A stretch of 63,232 nt of DNA, filler included, from Actinomycetota bacterium (GTDB lineage: Bacteria; Actinomycetota; Actinomycetes; JAKEEW01), in NCBI GenBank assembly GCA_046725875.1. It is 5 parts of 5 records of this genome, joined end to end, with 100 filler letters (N's around TTAATTAATTAA, not from the genome) between each part and the next. Parts side by side here need not be neighbours in the genome. Positions count along the whole stretch, not along the records: positions 1 to 18,589 come from JBKOZJ010000183.1; 4 more parts are not named here. One strand, written 5' to 3'. This document shows positions 1-18,589 of the stretch, in pieces. The notes below the pieces were generated by a model. It did no database searches. It was not told the origin of the DNA and saw nothing but the letters and a program-made list of their open reading frames with translations. Position numbers and translations under genes: made by a program. Position 1 is the stretch's first letter. The number at the start of each line of letters is the position of its first letter.

Positions 1-1
1 G

Positions 2-418
2 GAGATCGGGGTATCAGAGCGGATAGTGGAGGCCGAGCGGGACGGGTGGATCCTGGTTGTTGCTGCCTGGCCCGAACACATCCCCGCGGTTATGGCCGCA
101 AAATTCGCGCAGCTCGATGACCCGCAACTCGTTCGGCTCTACCGGATCCTGTCGGAGATCATCGAAAACGACGACGCAGGCGACGACGACCCGCGTCTGG
201 CAGAAGCCGCCGATATCATGGCCGGCCTGGCCGAGCAGGCATACACCTCCGGCGAGATCAACCCCGACGAGGTCGCGCACGACGACCTACCGATTGACCT
301 TCTGGACGCACTTGCCGTCGAGTCCGACCCGCGGGCGGAGCGGCTGCTGGACCTGATGCGCGAGCGCGGCTGGGCCGGTTGGAACCGGATGGAGCGGCTG
401 GCGGAGCCCCCCGACTAA
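2..418 (+). CDS. MerR-family transcriptional regulator, C-terminal part (5' truncated by window edge)
   Basis: Frame is open from position 2 (EIGVSERIVEAERDGWILV...LMRERGWAGWNRMER) and resembles the C-terminal domain of actinobacterial MerR regulators; the HTH is outside the window. Confidence 0.6.
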   Translation, partial: EIGVSERIVEAERDGWILVVAAWPEHIPAVMAAKFAQLDDPQLVRLYRILSEIIENDDAGDDDPRLAEAADIMAGLAEQAYTSGEINPDEVAHDDLPIDLLDALAVESDPRAERLLDLMRERGWAGWNRMERLAEPPD

Positions 419-539
419 CCTGCGAGCGTCGTTTCACACCTGGACGTGGACTACTCATGTCGGCGGGCGACGGGGTGCAGGACCAGGCTGGTGGAGCGCG
501 GCACAAGGCCGGCGTCGCCCCGAGACAGCAGGATGGCAG

Positions 540-876
540 CCAGCCACTGTCCGGCTCCATGAGCGCGCCGCTGACCGCCTCGGCGGCGACGTCGATGACG
601 GCACCGGCGAACGTGTCCGGGCCGACGTGGTCGTCGGGCCCGGCGTCGTCCAGTTCGGCCAGGATCCTGCCGAGGCGGAGACAGACCTGGTCCTCCAGGT
701 TCGCATCGGACAGGGTGGCCGCCAGCCCGACCAGGTCCGAGATCATGGGTCGGGCCGCCGCAGCGGCCAGAGCCGCTCGCCGCTCATCCATCTGGCGGCG
801 GTACCCGGCGAACCCCGCCAACGCCGCGGCCACCTCCTCCTGCTGCCGGTAGCCGGGGCCGTGACGCCTCGCCGGC
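540..876 (-). pseudogene. Internal fragment of a hypothetical protein gene
   Basis: Protein-like stretch GYRQQEEVAAALAGFAGYRRQMDERR...GALMEPDSGW inside ORF 258..1100, with no credible start or stop. Confidence 0.4.
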
Positions 877-1227
877 CTGCCATCCTGTCCGGCCACACCA
901 CGCGGCACGCCCTGACGATCACGAAAACCGGCACCGAGGTGATCGAGCGCGAGCGGGTCGCTGGTCGCGGACCTCATCGACCCGGTCACGGGCCAGATCG
1001 TCGGAGGGTACGTCGGTCCCACCACCTTGGAGCTGATCATCAGGGCCGTTGCGCCGGGCGTGACCACCGACGTTCCCGTCCTGGTCGGTACGACAAGCAT
1101 CCGCCCCGAGCTCGGTTACGCCGTCCCGCCCGGCGAGTGGGCCGCGAAGGTCACTCTGGGCCTGGCCGAGCAAACCGTCAGCACACCGCCCCTTCCGATC
1201 ACCGTCACCGACTCTCCCGAAAAGTAG
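876..1227 (+). pseudogene. Frameshifted 3' fragment of an actinobacterial hypothetical protein
   Basis: SGHTTRHALTI in one frame continues after a shift near 945-950 as LVADLIDPVTGQIVGGYVG...VLVGTTSIRPELGYAVPPGEW to the stop at 1227. Confidence 0.45.
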
Positions 1228-1239
1228 CCAGGACATGGG

Positions 1240-1381
1240 GCGACAGTCCGCTCTGCACGGAGCAGATTCAGGTCTTGCCTATCCCGTTCGGGCCAGTAAC
1301 AACGGTCAGGCCCTGGCCGACCTCCAGGTCCAGTGTGTCGAAGGACAGGAAGTCGCAAGCTTGCATCTTCGTCAACCGCAC
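1240..1381 (-). pseudogene. N-terminal remnant of an SMC/RecF/OLD-type ABC ATPase
   Basis: GAGGT RBS and GTG at 1381 give MRLTKMQACDFLSFDTLDLEVGQGLTVVTGPNGIGKT*, with Walker A GPNGIGKT; NLLRA follows in a shifted frame. Too short for the ORF track. Confidence 0.75.
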
Positions 1382-1747
1382 CCGTATACACCTCACGAGG
1401 TTGTCCCAGTAGTTGTGGTTTGGATGGTGGCGGTCGCCCACCGAGCCTTGCCTTGCGGTACGTGTTCGGGGTGACCTGCGAAGTCAATTCGATCCGGGCG
1501 GGGACTACCACGATGGGAGGAAGCTATCTGTCATCACTGTCGGCGAGCGAGCGGAATTGGCGCGGCTCGGCCCAGGACTGGGCTCCGCGATCGCCGTCCG
1601 CTTCCTCGCGTGGGCGTAGGAGTACACGACCGTGCCGAGGAATCCCCGAGACGGCCCAGGGCGGCGGCCGTCAGCAGCAGTAGGTGAAGGCGTCCTGGGA
1701 TTCTAGGGGGTCCGTTCCGTCAGGATGGACCTCTGTTGGAGAGGTCG

Positions 1748-2900
1748 CTAGGCCCCGCGATCCTCGGCTGATGGGGCACCTGCGCTCGCCCGCGGCGGAG
1801 CGTCGCCAACGTCGTCTGCCTCGGCGCGCATGTCGGCCATCAGGGTCTCGAGCAGCCGGTAGGCGGGGGTGCGCTCGAGCCGGTTGCGGCCGAGATCGTA
1901 CCGGCGGGTGGTGCGGGGGTCGGCGTGGCCGAGGTAGTCCTGCACCTCGTGCAACGGGACGCCCTCGTTGAGGGCGAGGGTGGCCATCGACCGGCGGATC
2001 GAGTGCGGGGCCAGCCGGCTCGCGTGCGGGATGCCTGCGGGCGCGGGCGACCCGTTGCAGCAGCCGGTACACGCTCGGCTGGTCGAGCGGCCGGCCGGTG
2101 GTGGTGGCGAACAGCGGCGCGTCTGCGCCCACCGGGCCGCGGTCGCCGAGGTAGGTATCGAGGGCGTCGTTGACCGCCGGGGGCAGCGCGAACCGGCGGG
2201 TGGCGCCGCCCTTGACGGTCAGGTCGATCACCTGATGCCCCGAGTCGTAGCCGAGGTTGCCAACGGTCGCCCGCAGAATCGACCCCACTCGTCCGGCGGT
2301 GGCGACCAGCAGCATCAGAAGGGCGAAGGTACGCGGCGACTCGTGCGCCCTGGCGTGGGCGAGCAGCCGGGCCAGCTCGGCGCGGGACAGGCCACGGGTC
2401 GCGGTGTCGTCGCCGACCCGGGGCCGGTCCATTCCGTCCAGCGGATTGCCCGCGGTGAGGCGGGCCCGGCCGTGCAAGTACCGGTACCAGGAGGAGACTA
2501 CGGCCAGCCGGCGGGCGACGGTCGAGTCGGCGAGGCCGAGCTCGCGCAGCGCCCCGGCGTACAGGTCCGCCACGGCCGGCCCGGCCTGCGCCGGGTGGAC
2601 GCCGCGGAGCACGCAGAACTTGACCCACCGGGACAGGTCCTGGGCGTACGCCTGCCGGGTGCGGGCGGACGCGCGGCGGCCGGAGATCATCCAGGTGCCG
2701 GTCGCTTCGACCAACTCGGGGTCGGCGCCGAGCTTGCGCAGGTACGAGGCGAGCCCGGCCGCGGTCCGCACCGGCGGCTGGCCCGCCAGCGGCGGCCGGG
2801 CCCGAAGCCGCGCCGGCGCCACCACCGCGCCGGGAACCGACGGTGCCGGAAGGTCGCCGGGACCGTTCTCGGGGTGCCGTTCGAAGGAGATCACGACCAC
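1748..2900 (-). pseudogene. XerC/XerD-like tyrosine recombinase with a +1 frameshift near 2040
   Basis: SAM-like N-domain (TRQAYAQDL, STVARRLAVVSSWYRYL, NPL), catalytic R (AGRVGS) and K (VKGG); removing one C (GCC C GCA) restores AGIPHASRLAPHSIRRS...LGHADPRTTRRY (HxxR, H, Y). Confidence 0.9.
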
Positions 2901-2924
2901 ATGATAAGGTCGCTTATCATGCAT
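2897..2924. other. Candidate dif-like recombination site (11-6-11)
   Basis: CCACATGATAA-GGTCGC-TTATCATGCAT; perfect CATGATAA/TTATCATG inverted arms around a 6-bp spacer, overlapping the recombinase start. Confidence 0.7.
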
Positions 2925-3122
2925 CGATCTCGCGGCTGGCCAACCTGATCCGGAGACTCGGCGAGCCGCCGACAGAACCCAAGGGATGACCGACCCGGTT
3001 CGCGGTGCTTTGGGAGGAAGCAACCGCCGGTGACCTTGCTGAGGTCCGCGCTCACGCAACTGTCTCGACATCAAGACGATCCGACGCGCGGTCGGTTTTC
3101 GTGTTCGAGCCCGTCGGTCTGC

Positions 3123-3806
3123 TTAGCCGGTCGGCGCGGACAGGTCGATCACCTGGTTGGCTGGCGGGGTTTTGATGGAGACGGGCTCGCCCCAGTCACG
3201 GAACTCGATGGTGTCGCCCCAGGGGGCCACGACCTGCGTCGGAAGCGGCTTGCCCTCGACCGGAATCCGCAGCGTCCAGCCGCTCACGGTGTCGATGAGC
3301 CCGATCGCCTCCTCACCGTTGATCGTCTTGGTCTCGCCCTTCGTGGTGAGGCCGTCTTTCATGATCTCCTTTTGGACGAACCTGTCCCAGTCGACGAATC
3401 CGCGCAGGTCCGCGAGCTCATCCGCGGTGGTGGGGACCTTCACGTATCGGCCCTCGAGCACCTCACTGAGAGCGGCGTTGCGGGTGAGCGCAGTCCATGA
3501 CTCCTTGTCCGCCTTTATGAAGAAGGCGTCGCCTGCGAGCAGCATCTCGATGGTGGCGCCTTCCGCGGTCAGCGTGCCGGTCGACCCGGTCTCGGAGACC
3601 TGGAGGTCGACTTTGAAAGTGGTACCTCGGTCGATGGTGTCTCCGGTCGCGTGAACCGACTTCGCCGCCGCCACCGCCGCGTTCGTCTTATCGAAGATCT
3701 CGTCTGCGCTGAGGCTGGCAAGGTTCTCGCCGTCGCCCGCGCAGGCGACCAGGCCCGCTCCGGCCAGGCATGCTAAGAGCAGCCGTGCGCGACGTGCTGT
3801 CGTCAT
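3123..3806 (-). CDS. Lipoprotein (LppX/LprAFG/LolA-like fold likely)
   Basis: MTTARRARLLLACLAGAGLVAC signal peptide with lipobox; AAKSVH..G and C-terminal DWGEPVSIKTPP..VID pattern. Confidence 0.7.
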   Translation of the reverse strand: MTTARRARLLLACLAGAGLVACAGDGENLASLSADEIFDKTNAAVAAAKSVHATGDTIDRGTTFKVDLQVSETGSTGTLTAEGATIEMLLAGDAFFIKADKESWTALTRNAALSEVLEGRYVKVPTTADELADLRGFVDWDRFVQKEIMKDGLTTKGETKTINGEEAIGLIDTVSGWTLRIPVEGKPLPTQVVAPWGDTIEFRDWGEPVSIKTPPANQVIDLSAPTG

Positions 3807-4011
3807 CGGCTTCTCCAGGGTCGGCTCGAGTGTCGGCACAGGCCGCGGTGGTGAGGGCTCCCAGCCACCAAGGTCGACGGTGAGCCTAGACCTACTCGGC
3901 GACTGAGACGGCATCGGACCCGGTCGGCGGCTACCGCGGGGCGTATGGGCCGCGCCGGGCGATCACCACACGGCAACCTGACTGGAGCCCAATCACCGTC
4001 GGCGGGTGGGC

Positions 4012-4194
4012 GAGCGCCAGAATTTGTTGTTTGGATCGTCCTCTTCGACCTGCTCGCGAATATGGGCGAACACCCGATCGCTTGTCCCTTGCCGACGTAG
4101 AAGGTTTCGCCGTTGCGAGGGTCGATGAGCCGATACACATAGGTCTTGACTTCTCCGCGACACCAGGGGGAAACGCGTTGACGTCTTCGGTCAC
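4012..4194 (-). pseudogene. LEM-3-like GIY-YIG endonuclease remnant (two -1 frameshifts, truncated)
   Basis: Three frames stitch to MTEDVNAFPPGVAEK(L)KTYVYRLIDPRNGETFYVGKGQ(G)DRVFAHIREQVEEDD, giving YVY...YVG...R GIY-YIG motifs. Confidence 0.8.
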
Positions 4195-4546
4195 CTCGTG
4201 CTCCTCCCTGTGCCTGGTTCGAGCGACGCACAAAGCGGTCGGAGGCCGGCCAGGTGGGTATCACCCCTGTGGCCTCCGCTGTACTTGTCGCAGCTGATCC
4301 GCTGCCAGGCGACCAAGATGACGACTCGGCGGGAGATCCGGCCCTCACCGCAGCGCTCTCCAAGCAGGTCAAGGTGTCGGCGGGCGCGACCGGTGGCTGC
4401 GGTGAGCCGGCCGGCGGAAGTAGCCATGCGAGCGGTTGCGGCGCGGCCAGCCCGGGCGGATCGAAGTGCCTGTGAAGTACATTCCGCGGCGGTCTTGCCC
4501 TCTGTTGCGACGTTCGTACGATCCGATCGTGCGGTCAGATCGATCG

Positions 4547-5008
4547 ATGCGCGCGGAGCCCGCTCCCGTGGTGCGGACTCCGAACCGTCGGTTGCGGGGG
4601 TTGCGAGAGCGTCGAAACGAGTCCCGCGCGGAGTTCGCTCGTGCGCTGCGGGCGCAGGCGGCGGCGTTGGGGGAGAACGTGGCGATCGGTGAGCGTCAGG
4701 TGGCCCGGTGGGAGCGGGGCGAGGTGCGGTGGCCGCGAGGGGCCTACCGGCGAGTGCTGTCGGCATTGCTTGGTGTCGAGGTCGGTGCGCTCGGTTTTGA
4801 GCCGCCGCAGGAGGTGGCGGAGGCGATGTCCCAGGCGCCGCCTAGCCCCCTTCCGATGCGTCGGCTGGTTGGCGCACCGACCACACCGGTGGCCCCACGA
4901 ATACGAGAGCCGGCAGGTCATGGCCGATCCGGGTCCATGCGTGTGTCTCCCGACAAGGCCGGCGCCGTGTCGTCGAGCGTCGAATGTCCCACGTCGCCCC
5001 CGACATAG
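4547..5008 (+). pseudogene. XRE-family HTH regulator, probably truncated after the HTH domain
   Basis: PNRRLRGLRERRNESRAEFARAL...VARWERGEVRWPRGAYRRVLSALLG...LGF; the tail degenerates and overlaps an opposite-strand fragment. Confidence 0.7.
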
Positions 5009-5069
5009 ACCGCCTCCACCGCGACGTACCTCTGGCGTGCCTCCTCGACCGCGACCCAGAGGGCGCGCA

Positions 5070-5381
5070 GATCAGCGGGGCCGTTCCCATGAGCATCGCG
5101 GCCCGCGTTGGCCCGGCATGGCGGACAGAGAGCGTCAGTAGGATCTGCGAGGCGCCCGGAGCGATCAGTCCCGCCGCGAAAAAAGGCCAGAGCTCAGCGC
5201 GGTCGACGTCCGCACCGGCGAGCGAGGGCGCCGCAACCACGGTCGAAATGGCGACCGCCAGGGTCGTGGCAACAAGCGCGGCCACCTCGGAGTCGCCGCC
5301 GCCGCGGAGGCCCCACCGCACAGCCACCGCAAGTGCGCCGAAGGACGCGCCGGCGAGCGCGGCAAACAGGAGCGCAGCCAC
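5070..5381 (-). pseudogene. EamA/DMT transporter (PecM-like), only the first ~104 aa remain
   Basis: Hydrophobic EamA repeat ending HAGPTRAAMLMGTAPLI, then an abrupt switch to unrelated sequence. Confidence 0.75.
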
Positions 5382-5401
5382 TTATTCTCGTACTCCCAAT
5401 T

Positions 5402-5419
5402 TACCTTTCTAGAAAGCAA
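5402..5419. promoter_or_regulatory. MarR/PecS-type operator palindrome
   Basis: TACCTTTCTAGAAAGCAA contains the perfect palindrome CTTTCTAGAAAG (CTT-N6-AAG), between the divergent EamA and MarR genes. Confidence 0.6.
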
Positions 5420-5444
5420 TCTCGATAGATAGTACGCTTGCCTG

Positions 5445-6028
5445 ATGCAGCAGTGGGATCACGTCCACCACGTGGTCGAGCAGTGGCGACGCGCGGCGCC
5501 CGAACTCGACCGGTCGGCATTTGCTGTCGTTGGCCGCATCTCTCGGGTAGCCCAGCTGCTGCAGGCTGACCTGGAGCGCGTGTTCGCCGGGCACGGGGTG
5601 AACGGAGGAGAGTTCGACGTCCTCGCCGCCCTCCGCCGGCGCGGACGGCCCTACCGACTAACCCCTACCGAGCTGGGCAAAGCGCTCGTCGTCTCGAGCG
5701 GCGGGATGACCAAGCGCCTCAGGATGCTCGAAGCTCGTGGACTGATTCGCCGGCAGCCAGCCCCAAACGACGGTCGATCGACGACCGTGTCGCTAACGCG
5801 CAAGGGGAAGGTTTGGTTGACGTGATCCTGCCCGAGCACGTGGCCAATGAAGAGCGACTACTCAGCGGTCTGACCGACGAGGAGCACGGGGTACTCGCAA
5901 GCCTCCTCGAGACACTGGCCATCTCACTCGGCGATGACGCGGACGAGCGCGTCGACGGTGTCGCGCGACCCGGCCGGCACCGACGCGCAGCGGTCAGGAA
6001 ACGATCTCGGCTTCGGCCGTCCGCCTAA
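5445..6028 (+). pseudogene. MarR-family regulator (PecS/TamR/UrtR type) with a 1-nt deletion near 5811
   Basis: EQW...PELD, GEFDVLAALRR.G.PY.L.P.EL, SGGMTKRL, DGR; ORFs 5445..5825 and 5813..6028 are the two halves. Confidence 0.85.
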
Positions 6029-6190
6029 CATGCGCCACTTCTGGAGATATCCCGACCGGCTAGTGCGGCTGGCTTGATGTGGTTTCAGCACCACGGGCTG
6101 ACGAGGCGTGCGTACGCAATGGACAGTGATGGCTGTGCCGTGCACCGTGACCCTCCGCGAACCCGCGTTTGATTACACGCCCGGTCGGGA

Positions 6191-7186
6191 TTAGTCAGCG
6201 AGCACTTCCGGGAAGCCGAACATCACGACCAGCGCCGGATCGTGGAACGCGATCACGCGGCAGACGCCGGTGGCGGTTGGGGTCAGCACCACGATGTCGT
6301 TTGCCCGGAACACGCCGTCCGCGTCCCGGTGGTACACGACGGCGGCGGGCTCGCCGTTGGCTGTAGTAGCGATCATCCGCCAGTCGCCCGGCGCGCCCAG
6401 CACGTACGCGTCGAGCATGTGGATGCAGTTCACCCGTCCGGCCTGCCATTCGCGGAATGGCGTCGCCTCCAGCGTGGCATCCGTTCGCAGCACCTGTTCC
6501 AGCAGGCTGGCGTCGGAGCGCTCGAAGGCTGCGATGTAGCCGTCGAGCAGCGCACGCGCCCGCTGGTCGGTCGGTTCGAGCAGTTCCTCAGGCTCCGGGT
6601 CCAGTTCGTCCAGCCGGGCGCGGGCGCGCTGCAGACCGCTCTTGACCGCTGCCGTAGTGGTGTCGAGGATCTCCGCGGTTTCAGCCGTGGAGAACGCCAG
6701 CACCTCGCGCAGGATGAGGATCGCGCGCTGGCGGGCGGGCAGGTGCTGCAGGCTCGCGATGAGCGCCAACCGCAACGACTCGCGTGCGACCACTACGGCG
6801 GCCGGATCGTCGGCGGCCGGGGCGATCCATCGGTCCGGTAGTGGTTCCAGCCACGAGACCTCGCCGGGCGCAACGGGACTCGGCGGCCGATCGGGTCCAC
6901 CGTAAGGACCCGCCAGCCCGGAGGGCAGCACCCGGATCCGGCGCGGCTCCAGCGCAGTCAGGCAGACATTGGTGGCGATCTTGTAGAGCCAGGACCGAAT
7001 CGATGCGCGGCCCTCGAAGCCGGCGTAGGAACGCCAGGCCCGAAGATACCTTTCCTGCACCAGGTCCTCGGCGTCGTGCGCCGAGCCGACCATGCGGTAA
7101 CAGTGCGCCAACAGCTCCCGGCGGAACCGCTCGGTCTCGGCTGCGAACCGGTCCTGGTTCGTCGCCTCCCGCACGTGCGCTGTCAT
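6191..7186 (-). CDS. ECF sigma factor with SnoaL-like C-terminal domain (SigG/ECF56 type)
   Basis: ELLAHCYRMVGSAHDAEDLVQE, WLYKIATN, WLEPLPD, LQHLPARQRAILILREVL, C-terminal ANGEPA. Confidence 0.9.
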   Translation of the reverse strand: MTAHVREATNQDRFAAETERFRRELLAHCYRMVGSAHDAEDLVQERYLRAWRSYAGFEGRASIRSWLYKIATNVCLTALEPRRIRVLPSGLAGPYGGPDRPPSPVAPGEVSWLEPLPDRWIAPAADDPAAVVVARESLRLALIASLQHLPARQRAILILREVLAFSTAETAEILDTTTAAVKSGLQRARARLDELDPEPEELLEPTDQRARALLDGYIAAFERSDASLLEQVLRTDATLEATPFREWQAGRVNCIHMLDAYVLGAPGDWRMIATTANGEPAAVVYHRDADGVFRANDIVVLTPTATGVCRVIAFHDPALVVMFGFPEVLAD

Positions 7187-7417
7187 GCCGCGAGCTTAGG
7201 CCGCGGCCAGTCGGCCAGATGCGCGATGGCATCCCAGTCGTTTGTCGACGGGTGGTTGTCTCGCGGCCTCCGCTCGTGGTCCGCCGCCGGAACCGTCAAC
7301 CACCGCCGGTACAGCTCCACTACCGCCGCGGATTGCTTGCATGCCATGCGCTGCTCCTTGTCCGGACCAGTCCCGCCGGTCGGGACCTCGCCCATCAGCG
7401 GTGTTGTGCCGGTGTGC

Positions 7418-8410
7418 TCAGGGCAGCAGGGCCAGTTTGCCAATCGTGGCGCGGGTTTCCAGTTCCGCGAGGGCCTTTGGACCGTCGGCCAAGTCGTAGG
7501 CGGTGGGGCGAGTGGGGGTGAGGACGCCGGCGGTAACGAGGGCGGATAGCTCACCCATGAGCTCGCCGAAGATCTGGGGTGCGGCCTGGATCAGCACGCC
7601 GATGTTGAGGCCGATGATGTGGACCTGGTGTTTGTACACCAGCTCCCAGTTGGTGATCGCGGCCTCGCCGCCTGCCATGCCGTAGACGACGACCCGACCG
7701 GTGACCCGCTTGGCCGCGGCCAGGCTGGCATTGAAGGTGGCACCACCCGCCGACTCCAGCACCAAATCGGCACCTGCACCACCAGTCAGCCGTAGCACCT
7801 CGGCGGCGAGGTCGCCATCGAGGGAGTCCATGACATGATCGGCGCCGAGTGCCAGCACTGTCTCGTGCTTGCCCGGCGAGGCGGTGGCGATGACCGTTGC
7901 GCCGTAGTGCTTGGCCATGGTCATCGCGGCCTGGCCGGTCGCGCCAGCCGCAGCGTGGACCAGCACGGTCTCCCCGGTGGCGATGTGGCCCAGGGGCTTG
8001 AGCGCGGCCAGCGCGGTGGGCCAGTTCACGACCAGGCCTAGCGCCTGCTCGGCTGTCCAGCTGGCCGGCACCGGCGTCGCCGCGGCCGCGGGCAGGACCA
8101 TGTACTCGGCGAAAGCCCCGGATCCGACGCCGATGACGCAAGTCCCCCGTCGTGGGCCGGTCACCGCCTCGCCCGCCGCCACGACCTCGCCGGCGGCCTC
8201 GAAACCCGCCAGATACGGTGGCAGCGGGCCGCCCAGGAACGTGCCGTAGGACTTCGAGATGTCGGCGAAGTTGACACCGGCGGCGGCGACCCGGATCAGG
8301 ACCTCGCCCTGGCCAGGGCTCGGTACCGGTGCGTCGGTGATCAAACGCATATCCTGCGGACCCTTCAGCGAGGTCTGCTGCAGGGCGCGCATGGTGGCGG
8401 GAATGCTCAC
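7418..8410 (-). CDS. NADPH:quinone oxidoreductase (MDR/zeta-crystallin family)
   Basis: EVLIRVAAAGVNFAD, GFEAAGEV, VLVHAAAGATG, C-terminal IGKLAL. Confidence 0.9.
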   Translation of the reverse strand: MSIPATMRALQQTSLKGPQDMRLITDAPVPSPGQGEVLIRVAAAGVNFADISKSYGTFLGGPLPPYLAGFEAAGEVVAAGEAVTGPRRGTCVIGVGSGAFAEYMVLPAAAATPVPASWTAEQALGLVVNWPTALAALKPLGHIATGETVLVHAAAGATGQAAMTMAKHYGATVIATASPGKHETVLALGADHVMDSLDGDLAAEVLRLTGGAGADLVLESAGGATFNASLAAAKRVTGRVVVYGMAGGEAAITNWELVYKHQVHIIGLNIGVLIQAAPQIFGELMGELSALVTAGVLTPTRPTAYDLADGPKALAELETRATIGKLALLP

Positions 8411-8477
8411 GGCAACCAGCTCTCTCTTCTTGGCTTGCCTCATCGCGGCTTGCCTCTTCGGCCGGCCGCGTCGACCA

Positions 8478-8508
8478 TGTAGACCTCGGCCACCGCAGAA
8501 AGGAATCG
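8478..8508 (-). promoter_or_regulatory. Candidate SigG/ECF56-type promoter
   Basis: CGATTC-N18-GTCTACA upstream of the oxidoreductase-sigma unit, resembling the SigG consensus CGATGA-N18-GTC. Confidence 0.4.
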
Positions 8509-8812
8509 GCAGCCGCTGAAGCGTCCGAGCTACACCAGCCCGGCCCGCTGCCCAAGCAGCCCTCAAATACGGCTTCGATCGAGAGACCCCGCGCCTGCCC
8601 GTCAGCGTGTCGTCGGCCAGTGACCTCGGCGTCGCGCGCCCGGCGAACCGACAAGCCCAGCTCTTCCAACCAGGACAGGGACTTCCGCGCGTTACGCGCC
8701 GTACTCAACCCGAACGACGTGAAAGCGCGAGGCCAATGGCCAATGGCGTTCGTCGCAGCCGCATTCGCTGCGAGCTCTTCGGCTCCGAGCTCGCCCCTGT
8801 ACGGGTCGGACC

Positions 8813-10120
8813 TCAACGCGGATCGTCGTAGCCCACCTGGAAAGGCAGCGGCGCCGGCACCGTAGAAAGCAGCCGTCGGGTCGTCTCCAAACCCCAGGTG
8901 TCGAGATCGAGTATCCGGTCGCCGGATGCGCGCAGCCCGCCGTACCGCTCGATGGTCGTCGCCCAAGCTGCGCGATGCGAAATCGAGGGACGGGCCAGGA
9001 GGCAATCCGGATCGTTGATCCAGAAGCGGCCATGCTGCCACCCGCGCCCAGCGACCGAGGTGGTCGCGGCGTGCAGCGACGGTCGGGACATGTCGCCGTC
9101 GACCGGGTCGACGCGCTTGTCGATGTCAGGAGAGACGCGCATCGCGTCCACCAGGCCCACACTGAGCAGAATCGGTGCGCCCGACCCGACCAGGTATGCG
9201 GTCGGTCCAACCGTTTCACGGATCAACTCGAGCGCGTCGCGGTAAGGCTGTTCCCGGAGCGCCCCCGCATAGAGGAAGTCAAGCTTGAAGTAGTCGAAAC
9301 CACCTTCACATAGGGTCATGAAGACTTCGCGAAGGTACGCCGCCGCTCCCGGACGGCGGACGTCGAGGGCGAACAACCGCTGTTGCCAGTTGTGTCCGGC
9401 ATCCGCTTGCGAAACCAGCCAATCGGGATGATCGCGCGCGAGGCGACTATGCGCTCCCACGACGAACGGAGCGATCCAGACGCCGGCCCGGCGGCCGGCA
9501 CCGCGGATTCCGCGGACCAGCGCGGTGAGGGATGGAAAGCTGGGCGCCGGCTCCAGCCAGTCGCCGACCTCGGCCTGCCAGCCATCGTCGATCTGGATCA
9601 CCTCAACCGGCAGGTCGAGCAGGTCGATCGCATCCAGGTTCTCGATGATGTCGGCCTCGGTCACCTCACCGAAGTACTGGTACCACGAACACCAGACGGT
9701 TGGTGCGGCGCGGAGCCGACGAACGCCTGAGCGAGCTGCGAAACCGTCGGCCCACTCGGCGAGCGCCGCGCCGATAGTGGCACCGGTGCTCTCCTCGACT
9801 TCTCCGTCCGTACTTATCACGAGACCGTCCTTGGACAGCTCGGCGCGAATGGACGGCACGACACCCGGCATGTCGCAGCCCGCGAGGACACGAACCGGGC
9901 CACCGTTGCCCGGGTCGATCGCGAGCAGGCCCTCGCCCTGGAAGCCGCGGGGCGGCCCAGGACGCTCGGGCCGCCAGCACATGATCTGAAGCTCGGGGCG
10001 ACTCGGGCGGAAACCGGTTGCCGTGACGGGATACGCGGTGGTCGGGCTCCAGCTCTGCCAGCCGTGCTCGTAGACACGGGCATGCGCGGGATCAACGGCA
10101 AGCTCGAAGATGCGCTGCAT
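8813..10120 (-). CDS. GH36-like (clan GH-D) glycoside hydrolase, alpha-galactosidase family
   Basis: WCSWY, IQIDDGW, GVWIAPF, YFKLDF (nucleophile), MRVSPD (acid/base), NDPDC. Confidence 0.85.
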   Translation of the reverse strand: MQRIFELAVDPAHARVYEHGWQSWSPTTAYPVTATGFRPSRPELQIMCWRPERPGPPRGFQGEGLLAIDPGNGGPVRVLAGCDMPGVVPSIRAELSKDGLVISTDGEVEESTGATIGAALAEWADGFAARSGVRRLRAAPTVWCSWYQYFGEVTEADIIENLDAIDLLDLPVEVIQIDDGWQAEVGDWLEPAPSFPSLTALVRGIRGAGRRAGVWIAPFVVGAHSRLARDHPDWLVSQADAGHNWQQRLFALDVRRPGAAAYLREVFMTLCEGGFDYFKLDFLYAGALREQPYRDALELIRETVGPTAYLVGSGAPILLSVGLVDAMRVSPDIDKRVDPVDGDMSRPSLHAATTSVAGRGWQHGRFWINDPDCLLARPSISHRAAWATTIERYGGLRASGDRILDLDTWGLETTRRLLSTVPAPLPFQVGYDDPR

Positions 10121-10128
10121 CCTCCGCC

Positions 10129-10959
10129 TCATCCCTTGGTGGCCCCGCCCGTCAACCCCCTGATGAAGTGCCGTTGCAACGCCAGGTAAAAGATCAGCAC
10201 AGGCAGGGTCGCGAGGAACATGAGCGCAAACATGGCACCGAAGTCAGCCTGATACTGGCCGATCGAGCGGTAGATCCCGGTTGTGATCGTGGTACCCCGG
10301 CTGGGACCCAGGATGATCAACGGATTGAGGAAGTCATTCCAGATCCAGACCCCGAGAAAGATCAGGACACTAGCGGTCGCGGGCCGCAGCAGCGGGAAGA
10401 CAATCCGCCAGAAGACTTGGAAGCGGCTCGCGCCGTCGATTGCCGCCGCCTCCTCGAGCTCGACCGGGATCGCCCGCGTGAAGCCGGCGAAGACAAACAC
10501 GCCGAAGGGGATGTAATAGCCCACATTGAATAGAACGAGACCCTGCACCGTGCTCATGAGGTCGAGCGCCCTCAGCACCCTGGTGATCGGCAGGAGAATC
10601 ACCTGGGGTGGGATCATCAGGCCGGACAGCAGCAGCAGCGTGACCCAGCGGACCCACCACGCGCGGGTGCGCGCAAGGTAGTGGCCGAGCATCGCGGACA
10701 GCGCGGTGAGAATGAGGATCGACAGCGAGGTGACGATAAGGCTGTTGGTAAGGCTCACCCAGAACAGCCGGTCAGAGCGAGTAAGAACGGCGTCGATGTT
10801 CTCAAGAGTCGGCGGGATAGGCACCGACATCGGCTCGGCCGAGATCCTCGAGCCTTTCTTGACGACGTTGACCAGCGCCACATACAGCGGCAGAAAGAAC
10901 GCGGCGGCGACGGTGATTGCGACAGCCGGCCGAAGCCAGGGCAACCGGGCGCGGTTCAC
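10129..10959 (-). CDS. Carbohydrate ABC transporter permease (MalG-like)
   Basis: EAA motif IPVELEEAAAIDGAS, WNDF; GTG start overlaps the upstream stop. Confidence 0.92.
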   Translation of the reverse strand: MNRARLPWLRPAVAITVAAAFFLPLYVALVNVVKKGSRISAEPMSVPIPPTLENIDAVLTRSDRLFWVSLTNSLIVTSLSILILTALSAMLGHYLARTRAWWVRWVTLLLLSGLMIPPQVILLPITRVLRALDLMSTVQGLVLFNVGYYIPFGVFVFAGFTRAIPVELEEAAAIDGASRFQVFWRIVFPLLRPATASVLIFLGVWIWNDFLNPLIILGPSRGTTITTGIYRSIGQYQADFGAMFALMFLATLPVLIFYLALQRHFIRGLTGGATKG

Positions 10960-11900
10960 AGCTCGACCTCGCGCCTCTGCAGCACCTTGAGCGTGACGGC
11001 CGAGGCCGTCGCAATGATCACCAACATCGCGATAGCCATGGCCGACGCGTATCCCTGCCGGTTCTCGGTGAAGCCGGTATGCAGGACGTTGTAGGCAATC
11101 GTCGCGGTCGTTCCGGTGCCGGGTCCACCGCGCGTCATGACCTGGACATGATCGAAGATCTTGAACGCCGAGATGAGCAGCACAACCGTGTTGATGGTCA
11201 GCGCGGGCGCAAGCAGCGGCCAGGTTACGTGCCAGAAGCGTCGGACCGGCCCGGCGCCGTCGATCGCGGCGGCTTCCAGCAGCTCGTGCGGTACGCCTTG
11301 CAGGCCGGCGAGGTAGACGACGACACAGAAGCCGAGCATCTGCCATGCAACGACCGAGCTGAGTGAGTAGAGCGCGATGTCTGGGTCGGATAGCCAGCCG
11401 GGCGGGTTGTCGACTCCGACCCCGCGCAGTGTCCGGTTGATCGGGCCGTTGTTGTCGAGCAGGCGGATCCAGATCACGCTGACCACAACTGAGCTGAGAA
11501 CCATCGGCACGAAGAAGACACTTCGCAGGCCGTTGTAGAGCCAGCCACGCCGATCGACCAGCATTGCAATGGCGAGCCCCAGTACGTTCGGAACGATCAC
11601 AACGATCAGCGTCAAAATGGTCGTGACCCGAAGCGACATGAGGAATTCCGGATCGCTGAACAACCGCCGGTAGTTGTCGAGCCCGACGTACTCGGTCGGC
11701 GGACTGAACGGGTTGTAGTCGGTGAGGCTGTATCCGAAGCTGATGACGATCGGCGCTAGCACGAAGCAGAGATAGACAAGCAACCCCGGCGACGCGAAGG
11801 TCGCGAAATGCCGCACGCCCGGTAGCTTCGGCTTGCGCCGGCGTCGGCTCGGCGTACGGCGGGCGGCGGCCTTAGGAGGTGCCGCGATGTCGACGGCCAT
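10956..11900 (-). CDS. Carbohydrate ABC transporter permease (MalF-like)
   Basis: YVGLDNY, YLAGLQGVPHELLEAAAIDGA, GGPG. Confidence 0.92.
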   Translation of the reverse strand: MAVDIAAPPKAAARRTPSRRRRKPKLPGVRHFATFASPGLLVYLCFVLAPIVISFGYSLTDYNPFSPPTEYVGLDNYRRLFSDPEFLMSLRVTTILTLIVVIVPNVLGLAIAMLVDRRGWLYNGLRSVFFVPMVLSSVVVSVIWIRLLDNNGPINRTLRGVGVDNPPGWLSDPDIALYSLSSVVAWQMLGFCVVVYLAGLQGVPHELLEAAAIDGAGPVRRFWHVTWPLLAPALTINTVVLLISAFKIFDHVQVMTRGGPGTGTTATIAYNVLHTGFTENRQGYASAMAIAMLVIIATASAVTLKVLQRREVEL

Positions 11901-11923
11901 CTAGCCGGTCCTCCCTGAGATGG

Positions 11924-11967
11924 CAATGCCGGCCAAACGCTCGTAGCGAGCGCTCCGGCCGGCATTG
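11924..11967. terminator. Intercistronic stem-loop after the solute-binding protein gene
   Basis: CAATGCCGGCC...GGCCGGCATTG outer stem with an inner CGCTCG-tag-CGAGCG stem. Confidence 0.65.
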
Positions 11968-11981
11968 TAGGAACGACGGGC

Positions 11982-13265
11982 TCAGGAAGCCGCATCCCAC
12001 TCGGAGTCGAGGAACGCGCACACCTGGTCGACAGACTTGTTCCCGGTAACGAGGTCCACCGACGAGGAGTCCCACTTCTCGACCATCCCCGGCAGCATGC
12101 CGTCGTCGCCGGCCTCGAATCCGAACGCCGGGACGATAGCGTTCGTCTGGACTCCCTGCTCGTAGAGCCGGTATCCCGCCTTGTAGGCAGCACCGGTGTC
12201 TGACGGCGGCGTGTAGCCCTTGACGGCCGGGAACAGCCCGTCGAACTTCGCGGAGGCGTCGAGATTCTGCCGGTCCAGCTGGAACTCGAGCGCGAACGTC
12301 TTCGCGGCGTCGAGATTCTTCGCCTTCGCGCTCACCGAGAGCCCGCCGCCGGTGAACGCTGGGACGACCATGCTGCCATCATCAGAGGGCCAGTTGAATT
12401 GGCCGACCTCGAAGTCAGGGGTGGTGTCCGGGCTGTCTAGAGCGGCGGCGAACCAGTTACCCATCGCGTACATCGCCCCATCGCCGTCGAGGAAGGCTTG
12501 CTGGCCGGCGGCGTAGTCGCGAGACATGTCCCGACGGTCCACGTAACCCTTCGCACCGAGGTCCGCCAGCTTCGCGGCGGCCGATTTGTACTTGGGGTCG
12601 CAGAACGACACGGTGCCGGCCCGGCGGTCGTGCATCCAGTCCGGGTTCTTGGCATACAGGTCGGTGCCCAAGATGCCCGCGAAGAGCGGGCCCAGCGAGT
12701 CGTGGACACCGGCGGTGACGAACGGCTTGACCCCGGCCGCATCGAGCCGCTTGGCGACGCTGAGCAGCTCGGCGTACGTAGCCGGCGGCTCGCTGACGCC
12801 GGCCTTCGCGAACAGGTCCTTGTTGTAGTAGACAACCGGAATCGTCTGCGTGTTCGCGGGGATCTGGTAGACCTTCCCCCCGATCGCGCCATTGTTCGGG
12901 AAAAGGAAATCCGCGAGCTCTTCGGATGACCATGCGTAGAGCTCGCCGGCCTCGGCGAAGCCAGCCGGAGAGACAGCGATCATTACGTCCGGAAACTGGC
13001 CTGAGGTCAGCAGCTGCCGAGCGTAGGTCGTCCGGTCTTGGGTCGGCGAAACGATCTTCTTGACGCTGATCTCCGGATGCTTGTCGGTGACCCGCTTGAT
13101 CGCTGCATCCCAGTATTGCGGCGTCAGATTCGGCGTCTCGAACACGAGGAAAGTGATCCGCTGGCTACCCGCGGCCTTGCCAGCGGAATCGTCATCGTCG
13201 TCGCCGACGGCGCACGCGCTCAATCCGACGACCAGTGCGCTTGCCAGCGCCAAGAGTCTCTTCAT
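11982..13265 (-). CDS. Sugar ABC transporter substrate-binding lipoprotein
   Basis: LSAC lipobox, YYNKDLFAKAG, P.TY.EL (SBP family 1). Confidence 0.92.
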   Translation of the reverse strand: MKRLLALASALVVGLSACAVGDDDDDSAGKAAGSQRITFLVFETPNLTPQYWDAAIKRVTDKHPEISVKKIVSPTQDRTTYARQLLTSGQFPDVMIAVSPAGFAEAGELYAWSSEELADFLFPNNGAIGGKVYQIPANTQTIPVVYYNKDLFAKAGVSEPPATYAELLSVAKRLDAAGVKPFVTAGVHDSLGPLFAGILGTDLYAKNPDWMHDRRAGTVSFCDPKYKSAAAKLADLGAKGYVDRRDMSRDYAAGQQAFLDGDGAMYAMGNWFAAALDSPDTTPDFEVGQFNWPSDDGSMVVPAFTGGGLSVSAKAKNLDAAKTFALEFQLDRQNLDASAKFDGLFPAVKGYTPPSDTGAAYKAGYRLYEQGVQTNAIVPAFGFEAGDDGMLPGMVEKWDSSSVDLVTGNKSVDQVCAFLDSEWDAAS

Positions 13266-13344
13266 CTAGCCAACCCTTCCATCGCGTCGGCGTGCCCTTT
13301 GTCGAAGGATTGGACGGTCGTCACAATCGCCGCCCATCGTCATT

Positions 13345-13419
13345 AGATCGGATGTGTACGGTCCGGTCAAGCAGCTCAGAGCACTGCTAGGCCGACTTAT
13401 GCCATGATTCATGGGATGT
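13345..13419. promoter_or_regulatory. Two candidate FadR/GntR operators (ACATCNGATGT-like)
   Basis: AGATCGGATGT (13345-13355) and TCATGGGATGT (13409-13419) in the divergent intergenic region. Confidence 0.55.
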
Positions 13420-13485
13420 ATCTTGACATCGTGGCGGGATCGGCGATGTCGTTGAGTTGCCCACAGGTCCAGGAGAGCCGGCCGG

Positions 13486-14787
13486 ATGACAGTGAAGATC
13501 ACCGCGATGGAGACCACCGACGTGCGCTTTCCGACGTCGCGGGATCTCCATGGGTCGGACGCGATGAATCCCGACCCGGACTACTCCGCGGCATACGTCG
13601 TCGTACGCACCGACGCCGGCGATGGGCGCGAGGGGCACGCGTTCGCGTTCACAATCGGGCGCGGAAACGATGTGCAGGTCGCGGCGATCAAGGCGATCGC
13701 GCCGCTCGTTGTCGGCCGTCCCCTCGACGCAACACTGGTAGGCCTCGGGGACCTCGGGAAGGAGCTCGTGCACGACTCGCAGCTTCGCTGGCTCGGCCCG
13801 GAGAAGGGCGTAATCCACATGGCGGTCGGCGCCGTCGTCAATGCGCTGTGGGATCTGCGCGCCAAGCGGGCGGGCAAACCGCTCTGGCGGCTGCTCGCGG
13901 AGCTTGCTCCACAGGAAATCGTCGACCTCGTCGACTTTCGCTACCTGACCGATGCGTTGACTCCCGAGGAGGCACTCGCGATTCTCCGGCGATCCGAACC
14001 GGGCCGCGCCGAGCGAATGGCGGAGCTCCAGGATGGGGGCTATCCGGCGTACGCGACGACACCGGGCTGGCTCGGCTACGACGACGACAAGCTTCGGCGT
14101 TTGTGCAAGCGAGCTGTGGAGGACGGGTTCGGCCACATCAAGCTGAAGGTCGGCCGGGAGCTAGCCGAAGACCGGCGGCGAATGGCCATCGCTCGCGAAG
14201 TGTGCGGCGCGGGCGTGCGGATCGCGGTCGACGCGAACCAGCGGTGGGAGGTGGGCGATGCGGTCGACTGGATTACCGCGTTGAGCCCGTACGACCTCTG
14301 GTGGGTCGAGGAGCCGACGAGTCCGGACGACGTGTTGGGCTATGCCGCGATCGCTCAAGCCGTCGCCCCGGTGCCGCTTGCTGCCGGCGAGCATGTACAT
14401 AACCGGGTGGTCTTCAAGCAGCTGCTGAAGACGCGCGCGATCTCATACCTCCAGCTTGACGCGACCCGCGTGGCCGGAGTGAACGAGAACGTTGCAATCC
14501 TGCTGCTGGCGGCGAAGTTCGGCGTGCCGGTTTGCCCGCATGCGGGCGGCGTCGGGCTCTGCGAGCTCGTCCAGCACCTGGCAATGTTCGACTATGTAGC
14601 CGTGAGCGGCTCGATGGACGACCGCGTAGTCGAGTATGTCGATCATCTCCACGAGCATTTCGTCGATCCGGTGATGGTCCGGAACGGCCGCTACGCTGCC
14701 CCGTCCGCTCCCGGCTTCAGCTCCACCATGCGCCCGGCCAGCATCGCACGCTATGCGTTCCCAGGCGGGTCGGCCTGGGCTCGTTGA
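13486..14787 (+). CDS. fucD: L-fuconate dehydratase (enolase superfamily)
   Basis: [67 protein letters not shown]. Confidence 0.92.
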
Positions 14788-14792
14788 CCACC

Positions 14793-15815
14793 ATGATGCG
14801 AACGATCCGGCTTGGCACAAGCGACGTGCGGGTCACCGCTCTCGGCTTCGGCGCGGCGCCGATTGCCGGCTTGTACGAGGCCGTGGACGACGAGACGGCC
14901 CGCGCCGCGATCGAGGCGGCATGGGATGCCGGCATCCGCTACTTCGACACTGCTCCGCACTACGGGCTCGGCCTGTCTGAGGTGCGGCTTGGTCGGGCTC
15001 TTTCGACCCGACCGCGCGGTGGGTACGTAGTCTCGACGAAGGTCGGCCGCCTCCTCGTACCCGAGACAGCCGCCCCCGATCGCCGTGACCTTGCGCACGG
15101 CTTCGATATCGCGACCACGCACCGGCGAAGGTGGGACTTTAGCGCCGATGGCGTTCGCAGGTCGTACGAGGCAAGCCTTACCCGCCTCGACCTCGACCGA
15201 ATCGACGTGGTCCTGCTCCACGATCCAGATGATCACTGGCGGCAGGCGCTCGAAGAGGCCTACCCAGCTTTGCATGACCTCCGCATGCAGCATGTCATTG
15301 GCGCGATTGGCGTCGGAATGAACCAATGGCAGATGCTGGCCGACTTCGTCCGGGAAGTCGAGCTCGACGTCGTCCTTTTGGCGGGTCGGTACACGTTGCT
15401 CGACCAGTCAGCGCTCGATGTCCTCCTACCGCTCTGCTTGCAGCGGAGCGTGACCGTGGTCGCCGCGGGGGTTTTCAACAGCGGCCTGTTGGCATCCGAT
15501 GATCCAGCCGAGGGTGGGCGGTTCAACTACCGGGCGGCGCCACCCGAGGTGCTGGAGCGGGCACGCCGGATTGCCGCCGTCTGCGCAAGCCACGGGATTA
15601 GCCTGCCGCAGGCCGCGCTGGCTTTCCCATTCGGGCATCCGGCCGTCGGGGCCCTTCTGGTGGGAATGCGGTCGGTCGTCGAGGTTGTCAAGGATGTCCA
15701 GCTCGCCAACCGCCCGGTGCCACCCGACCTGTGGGGTGAGCTCGTCGCGGACGGTTTGCTGCGACCCGACGCGCCAGCGCCACGGCGGGGAACCGGGCCG
15801 CTTGCTCCCGGCTGA
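14793..15815 (+). CDS. Aldo/keto reductase, D-threo-aldose (L-fucose) 1-dehydrogenase type
   Basis: LGFGAAPIAGLY, YFDTAPHYGLGLSE, STKVGR, LHDPD, LAGRYTLL; supported by gene context. Confidence 0.85.
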   Translation: MMRTIRLGTSDVRVTALGFGAAPIAGLYEAVDDETARAAIEAAWDAGIRYFDTAPHYGLGLSEVRLGRALSTRPRGGYVVSTKVGRLLVPETAAPDRRDLAHGFDIATTHRRRWDFSADGVRRSYEASLTRLDLDRIDVVLLHDPDDHWRQALEEAYPALHDLRMQHVIGAIGVGMNQWQMLADFVREVELDVVLLAGRYTLLDQSALDVLLPLCLQRSVTVVAAGVFNSGLLASDDPAEGGRFNYRAAPPEVLERARRIAAVCASHGISLPQAALAFPFGHPAVGALLVGMRSVVEVVKDVQLANRPVPPDLWGELVADGLLRPDAPAPRRGTGPLAPG

Positions 15816-15820
15816 GCGCA

Positions 15821-16504
15821 CTACGAGCCCACGTAGAGGGCGGTCCGAAGCCAGTCCTCGACTCCCGCGATGTGCACGGTCGCCCACGCCCTGGCGACGT
15901 CAGGCTGGCGGGCCGCGATCGCTTGGTAGATCGCGTTGTGCTGCTCACGGGTCCGGGCCACCGCGCCCTCTTGGGTAAGGCCACGCCAGATCCGTGCCCG
16001 GGTGGTCGGCGCCGACAAGGTGTCGAGCAGAGACGTCAGGACGGGATTACCTGAGCCTTCGGCTATCCGTTGATGGAACTTCAGGTCGTTCGCCACAAGT
16101 GCTTCGACGCTCGCGTCGTCCTCGAGTGCGTCGAGGATGCCGGCCAAGTCGGCGATCTCGTCGTCGCTCATGTGTTGAGCAGCCCGGGAGGCCGCGGCGG
16201 GCTCCAGGATCCGCCGTACCTCAAAGAAGTGCAGGACCGTGTCGTCGCGGTGGAAGTCGACGATGAACGAAAGGGCCTCGAGGAGTAGCTGCGGTTCCAA
16301 GCTCGTGACGTAGGTGCCATCGCCTTGCCGAACGTCCAGGACATTGATCAACGAGAGCGCCCGTACGGCTTCCCGCAGCGAGTTGCGGGACAAGCCGAGC
16401 CGCTCGGCCAGATCGGCCTCCTTGGGCAGCCGATCACCTGGGCGCAGGTCCCCAAATACGATCATCTGCTTGATGCGGTCGATCGCGTCGTCAGTAACAG
16501 CCAC
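15821..16504 (-). CDS. FadR/GntR-family transcriptional regulator
   Basis: PGDRLPKEADLA..LGLSRNSLREAV, RQGDGTYV, FCD domain. Confidence 0.93.
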   Translation of the reverse strand: MAVTDDAIDRIKQMIVFGDLRPGDRLPKEADLAERLGLSRNSLREAVRALSLINVLDVRQGDGTYVTSLEPQLLLEALSFIVDFHRDDTVLHFFEVRRILEPAAASRAAQHMSDDEIADLAGILDALEDDASVEALVANDLKFHQRIAEGSGNPVLTSLLDTLSAPTTRARIWRGLTQEGAVARTREQHNAIYQAIAARQPDVARAWATVHIAGVEDWLRTALYVGS

Positions 16505-16525
16505 GCTGCCCTCCCTGTGCCGTAG

Positions 16526-16633
16526 ACATCCGACGTAAAAGGATCGTTAGACGGTCCAATCTAGGCGTAAACCGGCTCATCCGGTGCCTTGAGTGGACCA
16601 TTCGGGCTGGCCTAGCCTTCATTGATCCGATAA
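16526..16633. promoter_or_regulatory. Three candidate FadR operators
   Basis: ACATCCGACGT (16526), TCATCCGGTGC (16577) and TGATCCGATAA (16623); same motif as 13345-13419. Confidence 0.5.
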
Positions 16634-16718
16634 GTGGTGATAGCGGGGGTCTGGAGATTCTTGTGGAACTCGTGCTCGAAGACAGGGCCCGCAGGGTCAG
16701 GCGATGTGGAGCCGAGCC

Positions 16719-18337: not shown

Positions 18338-18405
18338 ACGGCGCGCCGAGGGCTGGACCGGATCGCGCAACGGCGGCAACCAGATCTAGAACCCGCTACT
18401 AGAAT

Positions 18406-18589
18406 TTAGAACGGCGGTGGATCCGGGTCGTCGGCGCGGCCGTATGGAGCAGCGCTATCGTCCCTAGGCCTGGACTCTTCGGCATATGGCAAGTCATCTC
18501 GATCTTGTGTCCCGCGTTCAGCCGGTGGTCCGACCATCGGCCCGATGGGGTCGGGGTGTTTGGTGTAGCGGTGGCCGGTGGGCGAGGTC
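18406..18589 (-). CDS. C-terminal tail of a DUF222/HNH endonuclease (REP13E12-like), cut by the contig end
   Basis: TSPTGHRYTKHPDP...DDPDPPPF*, the typical (W)TSPTGHxY and terminal PPF motifs; not in the ORF track. Confidence 0.7.

What the first reader, a model, noticed from the sequence alone, without database searches (positions are those of the whole stretch)
1748..2924. Stand-alone Xer-type recombinase with its own symmetric dif-like site overlapping the start codon
Seen: the 28-bp CCACATGATAA-GGTCGC-TTATCATGCAT, an AT-rich palindrome in very GC-rich DNA, abuts and overlaps the GTG of a tyrosine recombinase that has all catalytic residues once one frameshift is repaired. Known: the ATAA-N6-TTAT core with 11-bp arms is the hallmark of dif/Xer sites, and single-recombinase modules (XerS/difSL, XerH/difH, TnpI/IRS) often carry their site next to the gene. 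Inference: the symmetric arms suggest a homomeric, possibly autoregulated recombinase-plus-site module from an actinobacterial mobile element. It could resolve dimers or cointegrates, or integrate at dif-like sites. This is the best candidate for an undescribed system in the window.
Basis: partly seen in the sequence, partly recalled or inferred. Interest (0 to 1): 0.72.

Follow-up and report, generated by a model that had tools for sequence, protein, structure and literature searches.

The report
Broken mobile-element resolvase with symmetric site
A frameshifted DNA-recombinase gene sits directly behind a mirror-symmetric 28-base site, a pairing kept across many actinobacterial plasmids, phages and chromosomes, that likely serves to split doubled mobile DNA circles back into single copies.

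Summary
The 28-bp site (2897-2924) is the only AT-rich perfect 8-6-8 palindrome in the 3.76-Mb host assembly. It abuts a tyrosine recombinase gene broken by one extra base near 2042. The pairing is conserved: a symmetric 11-6-11 site lies upstream in 49 of 125 homologous loci, against 3 of 1548 control windows, and the two arms change together. The likely start is the GTG at 2894, two bases behind the site. The gene belongs to an uncharacterised actinobacterial family (C-terminal GHADPRTTRRYD) on plasmids and temperate phages. One member, pKPAL3 ORF4, is needed for plasmid stability in a published deletion test. It likely works like MrpA/mrpS or Cre/lox, but it is not MrpA (24%), XerC, XerD or XerS. 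The host keeps xerC and a separate canonical dif whose spacer differs at 3 of 6 bases, so integration at dif and replacement of Xer are unlikely. This copy is probably a decaying orphan. The relatives are more striking: chromosomal copies sit 13-67 kb from dif in 15 of 17 cases checked, and some have a divergent zinc-finger coiled-coil partner. The scan noted similar gene-plus-palindrome pairs in two other genomes.

The parts
2897..2924 (.). 28-bp 11-6-11 dif-like site; perfect 8-bp inverted arms at 2900-2907 and 2914-2921, asymmetric 6-bp spacer at 2908-2913; predicted crossover site and operator
   Evidence: conservation and arm covariation in homologues
2901..2906 (-). TATCAT hexamer in the gene-proximal arm, 6 nt before the GTG at 2894; predicted -10 box of a leaderless transcript
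   Evidence: sequence; TANNNT at this place in 15 of 26 non-redundant sites; the sigma-70 scan found no promoter here; -10 consensus and leaderless starts recalled
2043..2894 (-). 5' part of the tyrosine recombinase gene: core-binding domain and first half of the catalytic domain (R 2291, K 2213); likely start GTG 2894, alternative GTG 2900
2040..2043 (-). One-base frameshift in a short C run, where homologues read through
   Evidence: no sequencing run was listed to check it
1748..2041 (-). 3' part of the gene: H-x-x-R (2005, 1996), H (1927), Y (1900), family motif GHADPRTTRRYD, C-terminal helix, stop

Best explanation
This is a frameshifted, probably inactive chromosomal copy of a one-protein resolution module from an actinobacterial mobile element, whose intact form likely recombines two directly repeated copies of its own symmetric 28-bp site to split dimers of a circular plasmid or phage genome. 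Shown: the site, its symmetry, the gene, the break and the conserved pairing in homologues. Inferred from tyrosine recombinase chemistry: one monomer binds each arm, four monomers synapse two sites and exchange strands across the 6-bp spacer, and the asymmetric spacer sets orientation so that direct repeats are excised. Inferred: the bound protein covers the -10 box in the gene-proximal arm and represses its own leaderless transcript. Only one site exists in the assembly, so nothing is left to resolve except a sister-chromosome dimer.
For: Symmetric site upstream in 49 of 125 homologous loci (17 of 79 genome, 32 of 46 viral) against 3 of 1548 control windows. For sites picked on the core alone, outer-arm complementarity is 0.68 against 0.33 in shuffles (0 of 5000 reach it; 15 non-redundant sites) and 0.10 for 10 dif sites. 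Arm sequences follow protein subclades on the tree. An in-frame start lies 2 nt behind the site in 18 of 54 site-bearing loci. A site lies upstream in 6 of 7 plasmid loci, once per repeat unit in a tandem assembly. pKPAL3 ORF4 (41% to the window protein; profile score 306 against 171-189 for XerC/D) has a perfect symmetric site, and its deletion lowered plasmid stability (PMC5711781 passages). In 10 of 30 viral records a second recombinase lies within about 4 kb of a record end, so the module is not the integrase there. Decay: neighbouring marR is frameshifted and eamA truncated against intact paralogues on C65, while 5 of 5 genes tested further along the contig are in frame.
Against: No biochemistry exists for any member I could find. 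76 of 125 loci lack a site within -700..+150, mostly vertically inherited chromosomal clades. ParA (PF13614) occurs in only 1 of 30 viral records, so these are mostly not P1-like plasmid prophages and why they need a resolvase is unclear. In 16 of 30 records the module is the only recombinase of the two families searched. Arthrobacter phage Isolde gp36 scores as a family member (253 bits) but has no site. No replication, partition or transposase gene marks a parent element near the window gene. The loci are related, so the counts overstate independence. The frameshift could be an assembly error.
Confidence: 0.68

Rival explanations
1. The module is a simple integrase and the site is its attP, recombining with a dif-like chromosomal site.
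For: In 16 of 30 viral records it is the only recombinase of the two families searched. One member lies on a Prim-pol/TraB element of AICE type. Simple recombinases can integrate phages (PMC8138268 passages).
Against: No second or hybrid site in the host: the next best match is 16 of 22 arm bases. The spacer differs from host dif at 3 of 6 bases. In records classed as provirus the site is intact and internal, and many carry an end-located recombinase.
Confidence: 0.12
2. The gene is a host-kept auxiliary recombinase of the terminus region, as its relatives in Micromonosporaceae and Thermomonosporaceae appear to be, and the frameshift is an assembly error or recent.
For: 15 of 17 chromosomal copies with a canonical dif on the same contig lie 13-67 kb from it. 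Three more loci have dif within 3.6-6.1 kb. Flanking genes are conserved within Dactylosporangium and within Actinoplanes.
Against: The window gene is on C183 and dif on C46, so the distance is unknown and at least about 26 kb; no contig overlap links them. None of 6 family relatives has the gene or matching DNA. Its neighbours are decaying. The 15 cases come from about five genera.
Confidence: 0.1
3. The module replaces XerCD/dif for chromosome dimer resolution, like XerS/difSL or XerH/difH.
For: Single recombinase next to its site, the hallmark named in PMC5357621 (passages). xerD is not found in the assembly. An earlier scan note reached this reading for another genome.
Against: xerC (C186) and a canonical dif with a full XerD arm (C46) are present. 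6 of 6 family relatives have an xerD-like gene. Its neighbours in relatives, an L,D-transpeptidase gene and ald, have no close match in this 89% complete assembly either, which points to a gap.
Confidence: 0.04
4. The palindrome is only an operator for autorepression and is not recombined.
For: It covers the predicted -10 box. In Dactylosporangium a half-symmetric version stands before a different gene, far from the recombinase.
Against: The exact 11-6-11 Xer geometry with an ATAA/TTAT core, the conserved catalytic residues and the same layout at SCP2 fit a crossover site.
Confidence: 0.06

Closest known systems
pKPAL3 ORF4 of Kocuria palustris (PMC5711781, passages read; Supplementary Figure S1 not seen)
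   Same: Same family: GHADPRTTRRYD motif, 41% identity, 306 bits on the family profile, perfect symmetric 11-6-11 site upstream. Deletion lowers segregational stability.
   Different: The passages read call it XerD-like and name no site or mechanism. Different arm sequence, intact gene, on a replicon.
MrpA/mrpS of Streptomyces plasmid SCP2 (Warth et al. 2011, not held; activity and the match of SCP2.07c to MrpA recalled)
   Same: One recombinase with its own dif-like symmetric site just upstream of the gene. Recalled as resolving, inverting and integrating without accessory factors; mrpA-driven multimerisation is described in PMC4685060 (passages).
   Different: 24% identity, 80 bits on the family profile against 253-417 for full-length members, W in place of the second H, 15-bp arms.
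XerS/difSL and XerH/difH (PMC5357621, passages read)
   Same: Single recombinase genetically linked to its site.
   Different: Those are chromosomal, replace XerCD and are FtsK-linked. An intact homologue scores 43 against the XerS cut-off of 267, and this host keeps xerC and dif.
XerC/XerD and actinobacterial dif (PMC3025954, passages read)
   Same: Best sequence and structure matches: XerD 1a0p at E 6e-45; XerA, XerD and XerH by fold for the homologue P0004. Same 11-6-11 core.
   Different: Far below the equivalog cut-offs (123-125 bits against 330-335). Symmetric arms; dif arms are asymmetric.
TnpI/irs and TnpS+TnpT/rst of Tn3-family transposons (PMC7157771, passages read)
   Same: Site upstream of the recombinase with promoter overlap. 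Some relatives have a divergent helper-like gene across the site.
   Different: No transposase and no divergent partner in the window. Homology of the relatives' partner to TnpT was not tested.

Membership tests
GHADPRTTRRYD family (pKPAL3 ORF4 type) | C-terminal motif and profile score above XerC/D | tested here: met
   Motif present; the two pieces score 279 and 106 bits, XerC/D 171-189; falls in a 40-member clade with support 1.0
GHADPRTTRRYD family (pKPAL3 ORF4 type) | Symmetric 11-6-11 site directly upstream, start codon 2 nt behind it | tested here: met
GHADPRTTRRYD family (pKPAL3 ORF4 type) | Intact reading frame | tested here: not met
   One-base frameshift; reads unavailable
GHADPRTTRRYD family (pKPAL3 ORF4 type) | Carried on a replicon or prophage | tested here: inconclusive
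   Only scraps nearby: PHROG hits to GIY-YIG-like and regulator fragments; DNA absent from 6 family relatives
MrpA/mrpS | Single recombinase with adjacent symmetric site | tested here: met
MrpA/mrpS | Close protein homology | tested here: not met
   24% over 165 aa; 80 bits
MrpA/mrpS | Accessory-free resolution, inversion and integration | not testable with these tools
   needs a recombination assay
XerC/XerD | Score above TIGR02224/TIGR02225 cut-offs | tested here: not met
   68/62 bits for the 5' piece, 123/125 for intact P0004, cut-offs 335/330
XerC/XerD | Asymmetric site with a XerD arm | tested here: not met
   Window site symmetric; the host dif on C46 has the XerD arm
XerS/XerH | Replaces xerC, xerD and canonical dif | tested here: not met
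   xerC and dif present; xerD-like gene in 6 of 6 relatives
XerS/XerH | Site at the replication terminus | tested here: inconclusive
   197-contig assembly, no link between C183 and C46
TnpI/irs | Adjacent Tn3 transposase of about 1000 aa | tested here: not met
   Longest ORF overlapping 1-12000 is 496 aa
TnpI/irs | Accessory direct repeats DR1/DR2 | tested here: inconclusive
   None beside the site among the 20 largest of at least 60 repeat families shown
TnpS+TnpT/rst | Divergent helper gene across the site | tested here: not met
   Profile of the relatives' partner finds nothing in the host, best E 0.097
IMEX / pdif | Site compatible with host dif (XerD arm, matching spacer) | tested here: not met
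   3 of 6 spacer bases differ, no XerD arm

The most novel reading that the evidence does not exclude
This family is an unrecognised third dimer-resolution system of actinobacteria. It travels on plasmids and temperate phages as a self-repressing Cre-like module with dozens of naturally orthogonal 28-bp sites, explains some of the unexplained second integrases of actinophages, and has been domesticated repeatedly beside dif in Micromonosporaceae and Thermomonosporaceae, there working with a divergently encoded zinc-finger coiled-coil helper. The window copy is a failed acquisition of that system.
Probability: 0.2. Interest if true: 0.72.

Novelty: new variant of a known kind. Interest (0 to 1): 0.45.

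Why it matters
A 2012 survey said it could not identify the plasmid families that resolve multimers (PMC3414803, passages). This gives a candidate family with a predicted site per member, which makes the question directly testable. At least 26 distinct site variants that follow protein subclades could be a source of compact orthogonal recombinases for GC-rich hosts. The clustering of chromosomal copies near dif is unexplained. The window copy itself is probably broken and adds one more site variant.

Tried and rejected
Read check of the frameshift: no run was listed. Close relatives in metagenomes: 1 distant locus only. Second site or hybrid att site in the host: none. Contig-end overlap between C183 and the dif contig C46: none of 22 nt or more. 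Divergent zinc-finger coiled-coil partner in the host: none. The tandem ATAA-N6-TTAT on C5 lies before a MarR-type gene and was set aside as a likely operator (annotation by eye, not scanned). Sigma-70 scan: no promoter. Downstream ORF 540-848: no homologue. Translated comparison of the flanks with homologous loci gave only short low-complexity hits. Conserved-column test for decay: 9 differences at 87 covered columns against a median of 2 (0-11) in 36 clade members, inconclusive because the window protein is on a long branch. Rooting on MrpA gave a long-branch artefact, and the deep branching against XerC/D is unresolved (support 0.33-0.55). The Atlas look-up of the partner protein returned nothing usable. 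The Warth 2011 paper is not held. No complex prediction was run.

Full report
Observation. The 28-mer lies at 2897-2924 as stated. Its inner eight arm positions form a perfect inverted repeat around a 6-bp spacer; the outer three do not pair. It is the only ATAA-N6-TTAT in the window (0 of 100 shuffles) and the only AT-rich one among 265 perfect 8-6-8 repeats in the 3.76-Mb assembly. The minus-strand gene behind it is a tyrosine recombinase in two frames, with PF02899 and PF00589 split at the break and all catalytic residues present. The window joins several contigs; 1-18589 is contig C183 of an 89% complete assembly.

Family. Homologues at about 50% come from Streptomyces and Actinomadura. 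A profile of 14 of them retrieved 80 genome loci (best of 476) and 59 viral loci, 497 plasmid records at E 1e-5, most of them weak, and 39 of 401 class genomes at E 1e-58 (5 candidates scored per genome). Members share a C-terminal GHADPRTTRRYD motif and score 253-417 bits on the wider profile, XerC/D 171-189, MrpA 80. All are far below XerC, XerD and XerS cut-offs. A model of the intact homologue P0004 (pLDDT 94.6) matches XerA, XerD, XerH and Cre. The window protein sits in a 40-member clade (support 1.0) with Streptomyces and Streptosporangiales proteins at up to 57%.

The site travels with the gene. Leaving out 13 weak viral hits and one locus at a contig end, 49 of 125 loci have a symmetric site within -700..+150, against 3 of 1548 equal-sized control windows (three pairs of loci are duplicates). 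That score rewards symmetry, so I repeated the test on sites picked by the core alone: outer-arm complementarity 0.68, shuffled 0.33, 0 of 5000 shuffles reaching it, dif sites 0.10. Both arms change together and follow protein subclades, which is what a single protein binding both arms would give. In 18 of 54 site-bearing loci an in-frame start lies exactly 2 nt behind the site, which picks the GTG at 2894 here. The hexamer TATCAT in the proximal arm then sits 6 nt before the start, the spacing of a leaderless promoter (recalled). Autorepression is inferred from this, not shown; TANNNT is kept in only 15 of 26 sites.

What it does. Six of 7 plasmid loci have a site 2 nt to 1.3 kb upstream. pKPAL3 ORF4 is a member with a perfect site, and its deletion alone lowered segregational stability (PMC5711781, passages; the supplementary figure was not seen). 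SCP2 carries the same layout with a distant protein that I recall as MrpA/mrpS. Among 30 viral records the module is usually internal, 14 have a second recombinase hit (one below cut-off), 10 of them near a record end, and 1 has ParA. Phage Isolde has a family gene beside a separate integrase, though without a site; the function of such second integrases is described as open (PMC13097055, passages). The best reading is a homomeric resolvase for circular forms. The 16 records without a second recombinase leave room for an integrase role.

This copy. The host has xerC and a canonical dif on C46 that resembles the published Frankia dif. xerD is missing, but so are its neighbours in relatives, and 6 of 6 relatives have it, so a gap is likely. 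The window spacer differs from dif at 3 of 6 bases and there is no second site. Relatives lack this DNA. The neighbouring marR and eamA are broken against intact paralogues, while genes further along the contig are in frame, and a 100-bp scrap of another family gene lies on C111. Real decay is more likely than assembly error, at roughly 3 to 1 by my judgement; no reads could be had.

Relatives go further. Fifteen of 17 chromosomal copies with a canonical dif on the same contig lie 13-67 kb from it; the exceptions are G009 (439 kb) and a second module in G041. These come from about five genera and are not independent. No canonical dif was found in G210, G091, G433, G198 or the two Streptomyces, only a second site type in G055 and no match at all in G051; in G181 it is on another contig. 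Six of 54 site-bearing loci have a divergent zinc-finger coiled-coil gene starting 61-86 nt across the site, as do G210, G091 and one plasmid. In 6 of 6 Dactylosporangium chromosomes a half-symmetric site stands before that gene, 17-70 kb from a site-less recombinase gene, and one arm matches the sites of sister proteins. This recalls TnpS+TnpT (PMC7157771, passages), but homology was not tested and the window has no such partner.

Literature and verdict. Ten full-text searches listed no paper describing this family's sites or the dif clustering; most subscription papers are not in the library, and eight papers were read as passages only. The finding is real. It is a probably dead member of an uncharacterised but expected kind of system: a new variant of the single-recombinase resolvases, of moderate interest, with most of the surprise in its relatives.

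Noticed in passing
G000:C46:23133-23160: Host chromosomal dif candidate, asymmetric, with a full XerD arm; an HNH/DUF222-like scrap lies beside it (label by eye).
   Followed up: partly
G000:C5:3546-3573: Two tandem ATAA-N6-TTAT units directly before a MarR-type gene, likely an operator.
   Followed up: no
L207:555-1550 and L204, L209, L210, L250-L253, L262: A second, different tyrosine recombinase family with its own symmetric site sits 0.5-2.5 kb from dif in Actinoplanes and in genus g109.
   Followed up: partly
L172, L173, L175, L188, L192, L194: Dactylosporangium: detached half-symmetric site before a zinc-finger coiled-coil gene with no Pfam match, 17-70 kb from the recombinase gene.
   Followed up: partly
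L114, L115, L117, L109: A viral subclade carries the site at the 3' end of the gene, not the 5' end.
   Followed up: no
L021/L100 and L101: A second dif-like site lies 330-890 nt downstream of the gene in two related prophage loci.
   Followed up: no
L012, L013, L037 upstream genes: A small helix-turn-helix-like gene ends just before the site in several Streptomyces-clade loci (label by eye).
   Followed up: no
window 4842-6106: Truncated eamA and frameshifted marR, 90% identical to an intact pair on C65.
   Followed up: yes
window 3931-4372 and 4436-5008: Fragments with PHROG hits: a GIY-YIG-like piece (label recalled) and a transcription regulator piece.
   Followed up: partly
window 2-418: 3' part of a protein matching a MerR-family annotation on Streptomyces replicons at about 42%.
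   Followed up: partly
window 3123-3803: Lipoprotein-like gene with no Pfam or PHROG match and a 69% paralogue on C87.
   Followed up: no
G000:C111:4657-4757: 100-bp scrap, 85% identical to the recombinase gene, without a site.
   Followed up: partly
L216 (NZ_CP108534): The 27-kb 'linear plasmid' is a tandem duplication of a 13.5-kb Prim-pol/TraB element, probably an assembly of a circle.
   Followed up: no
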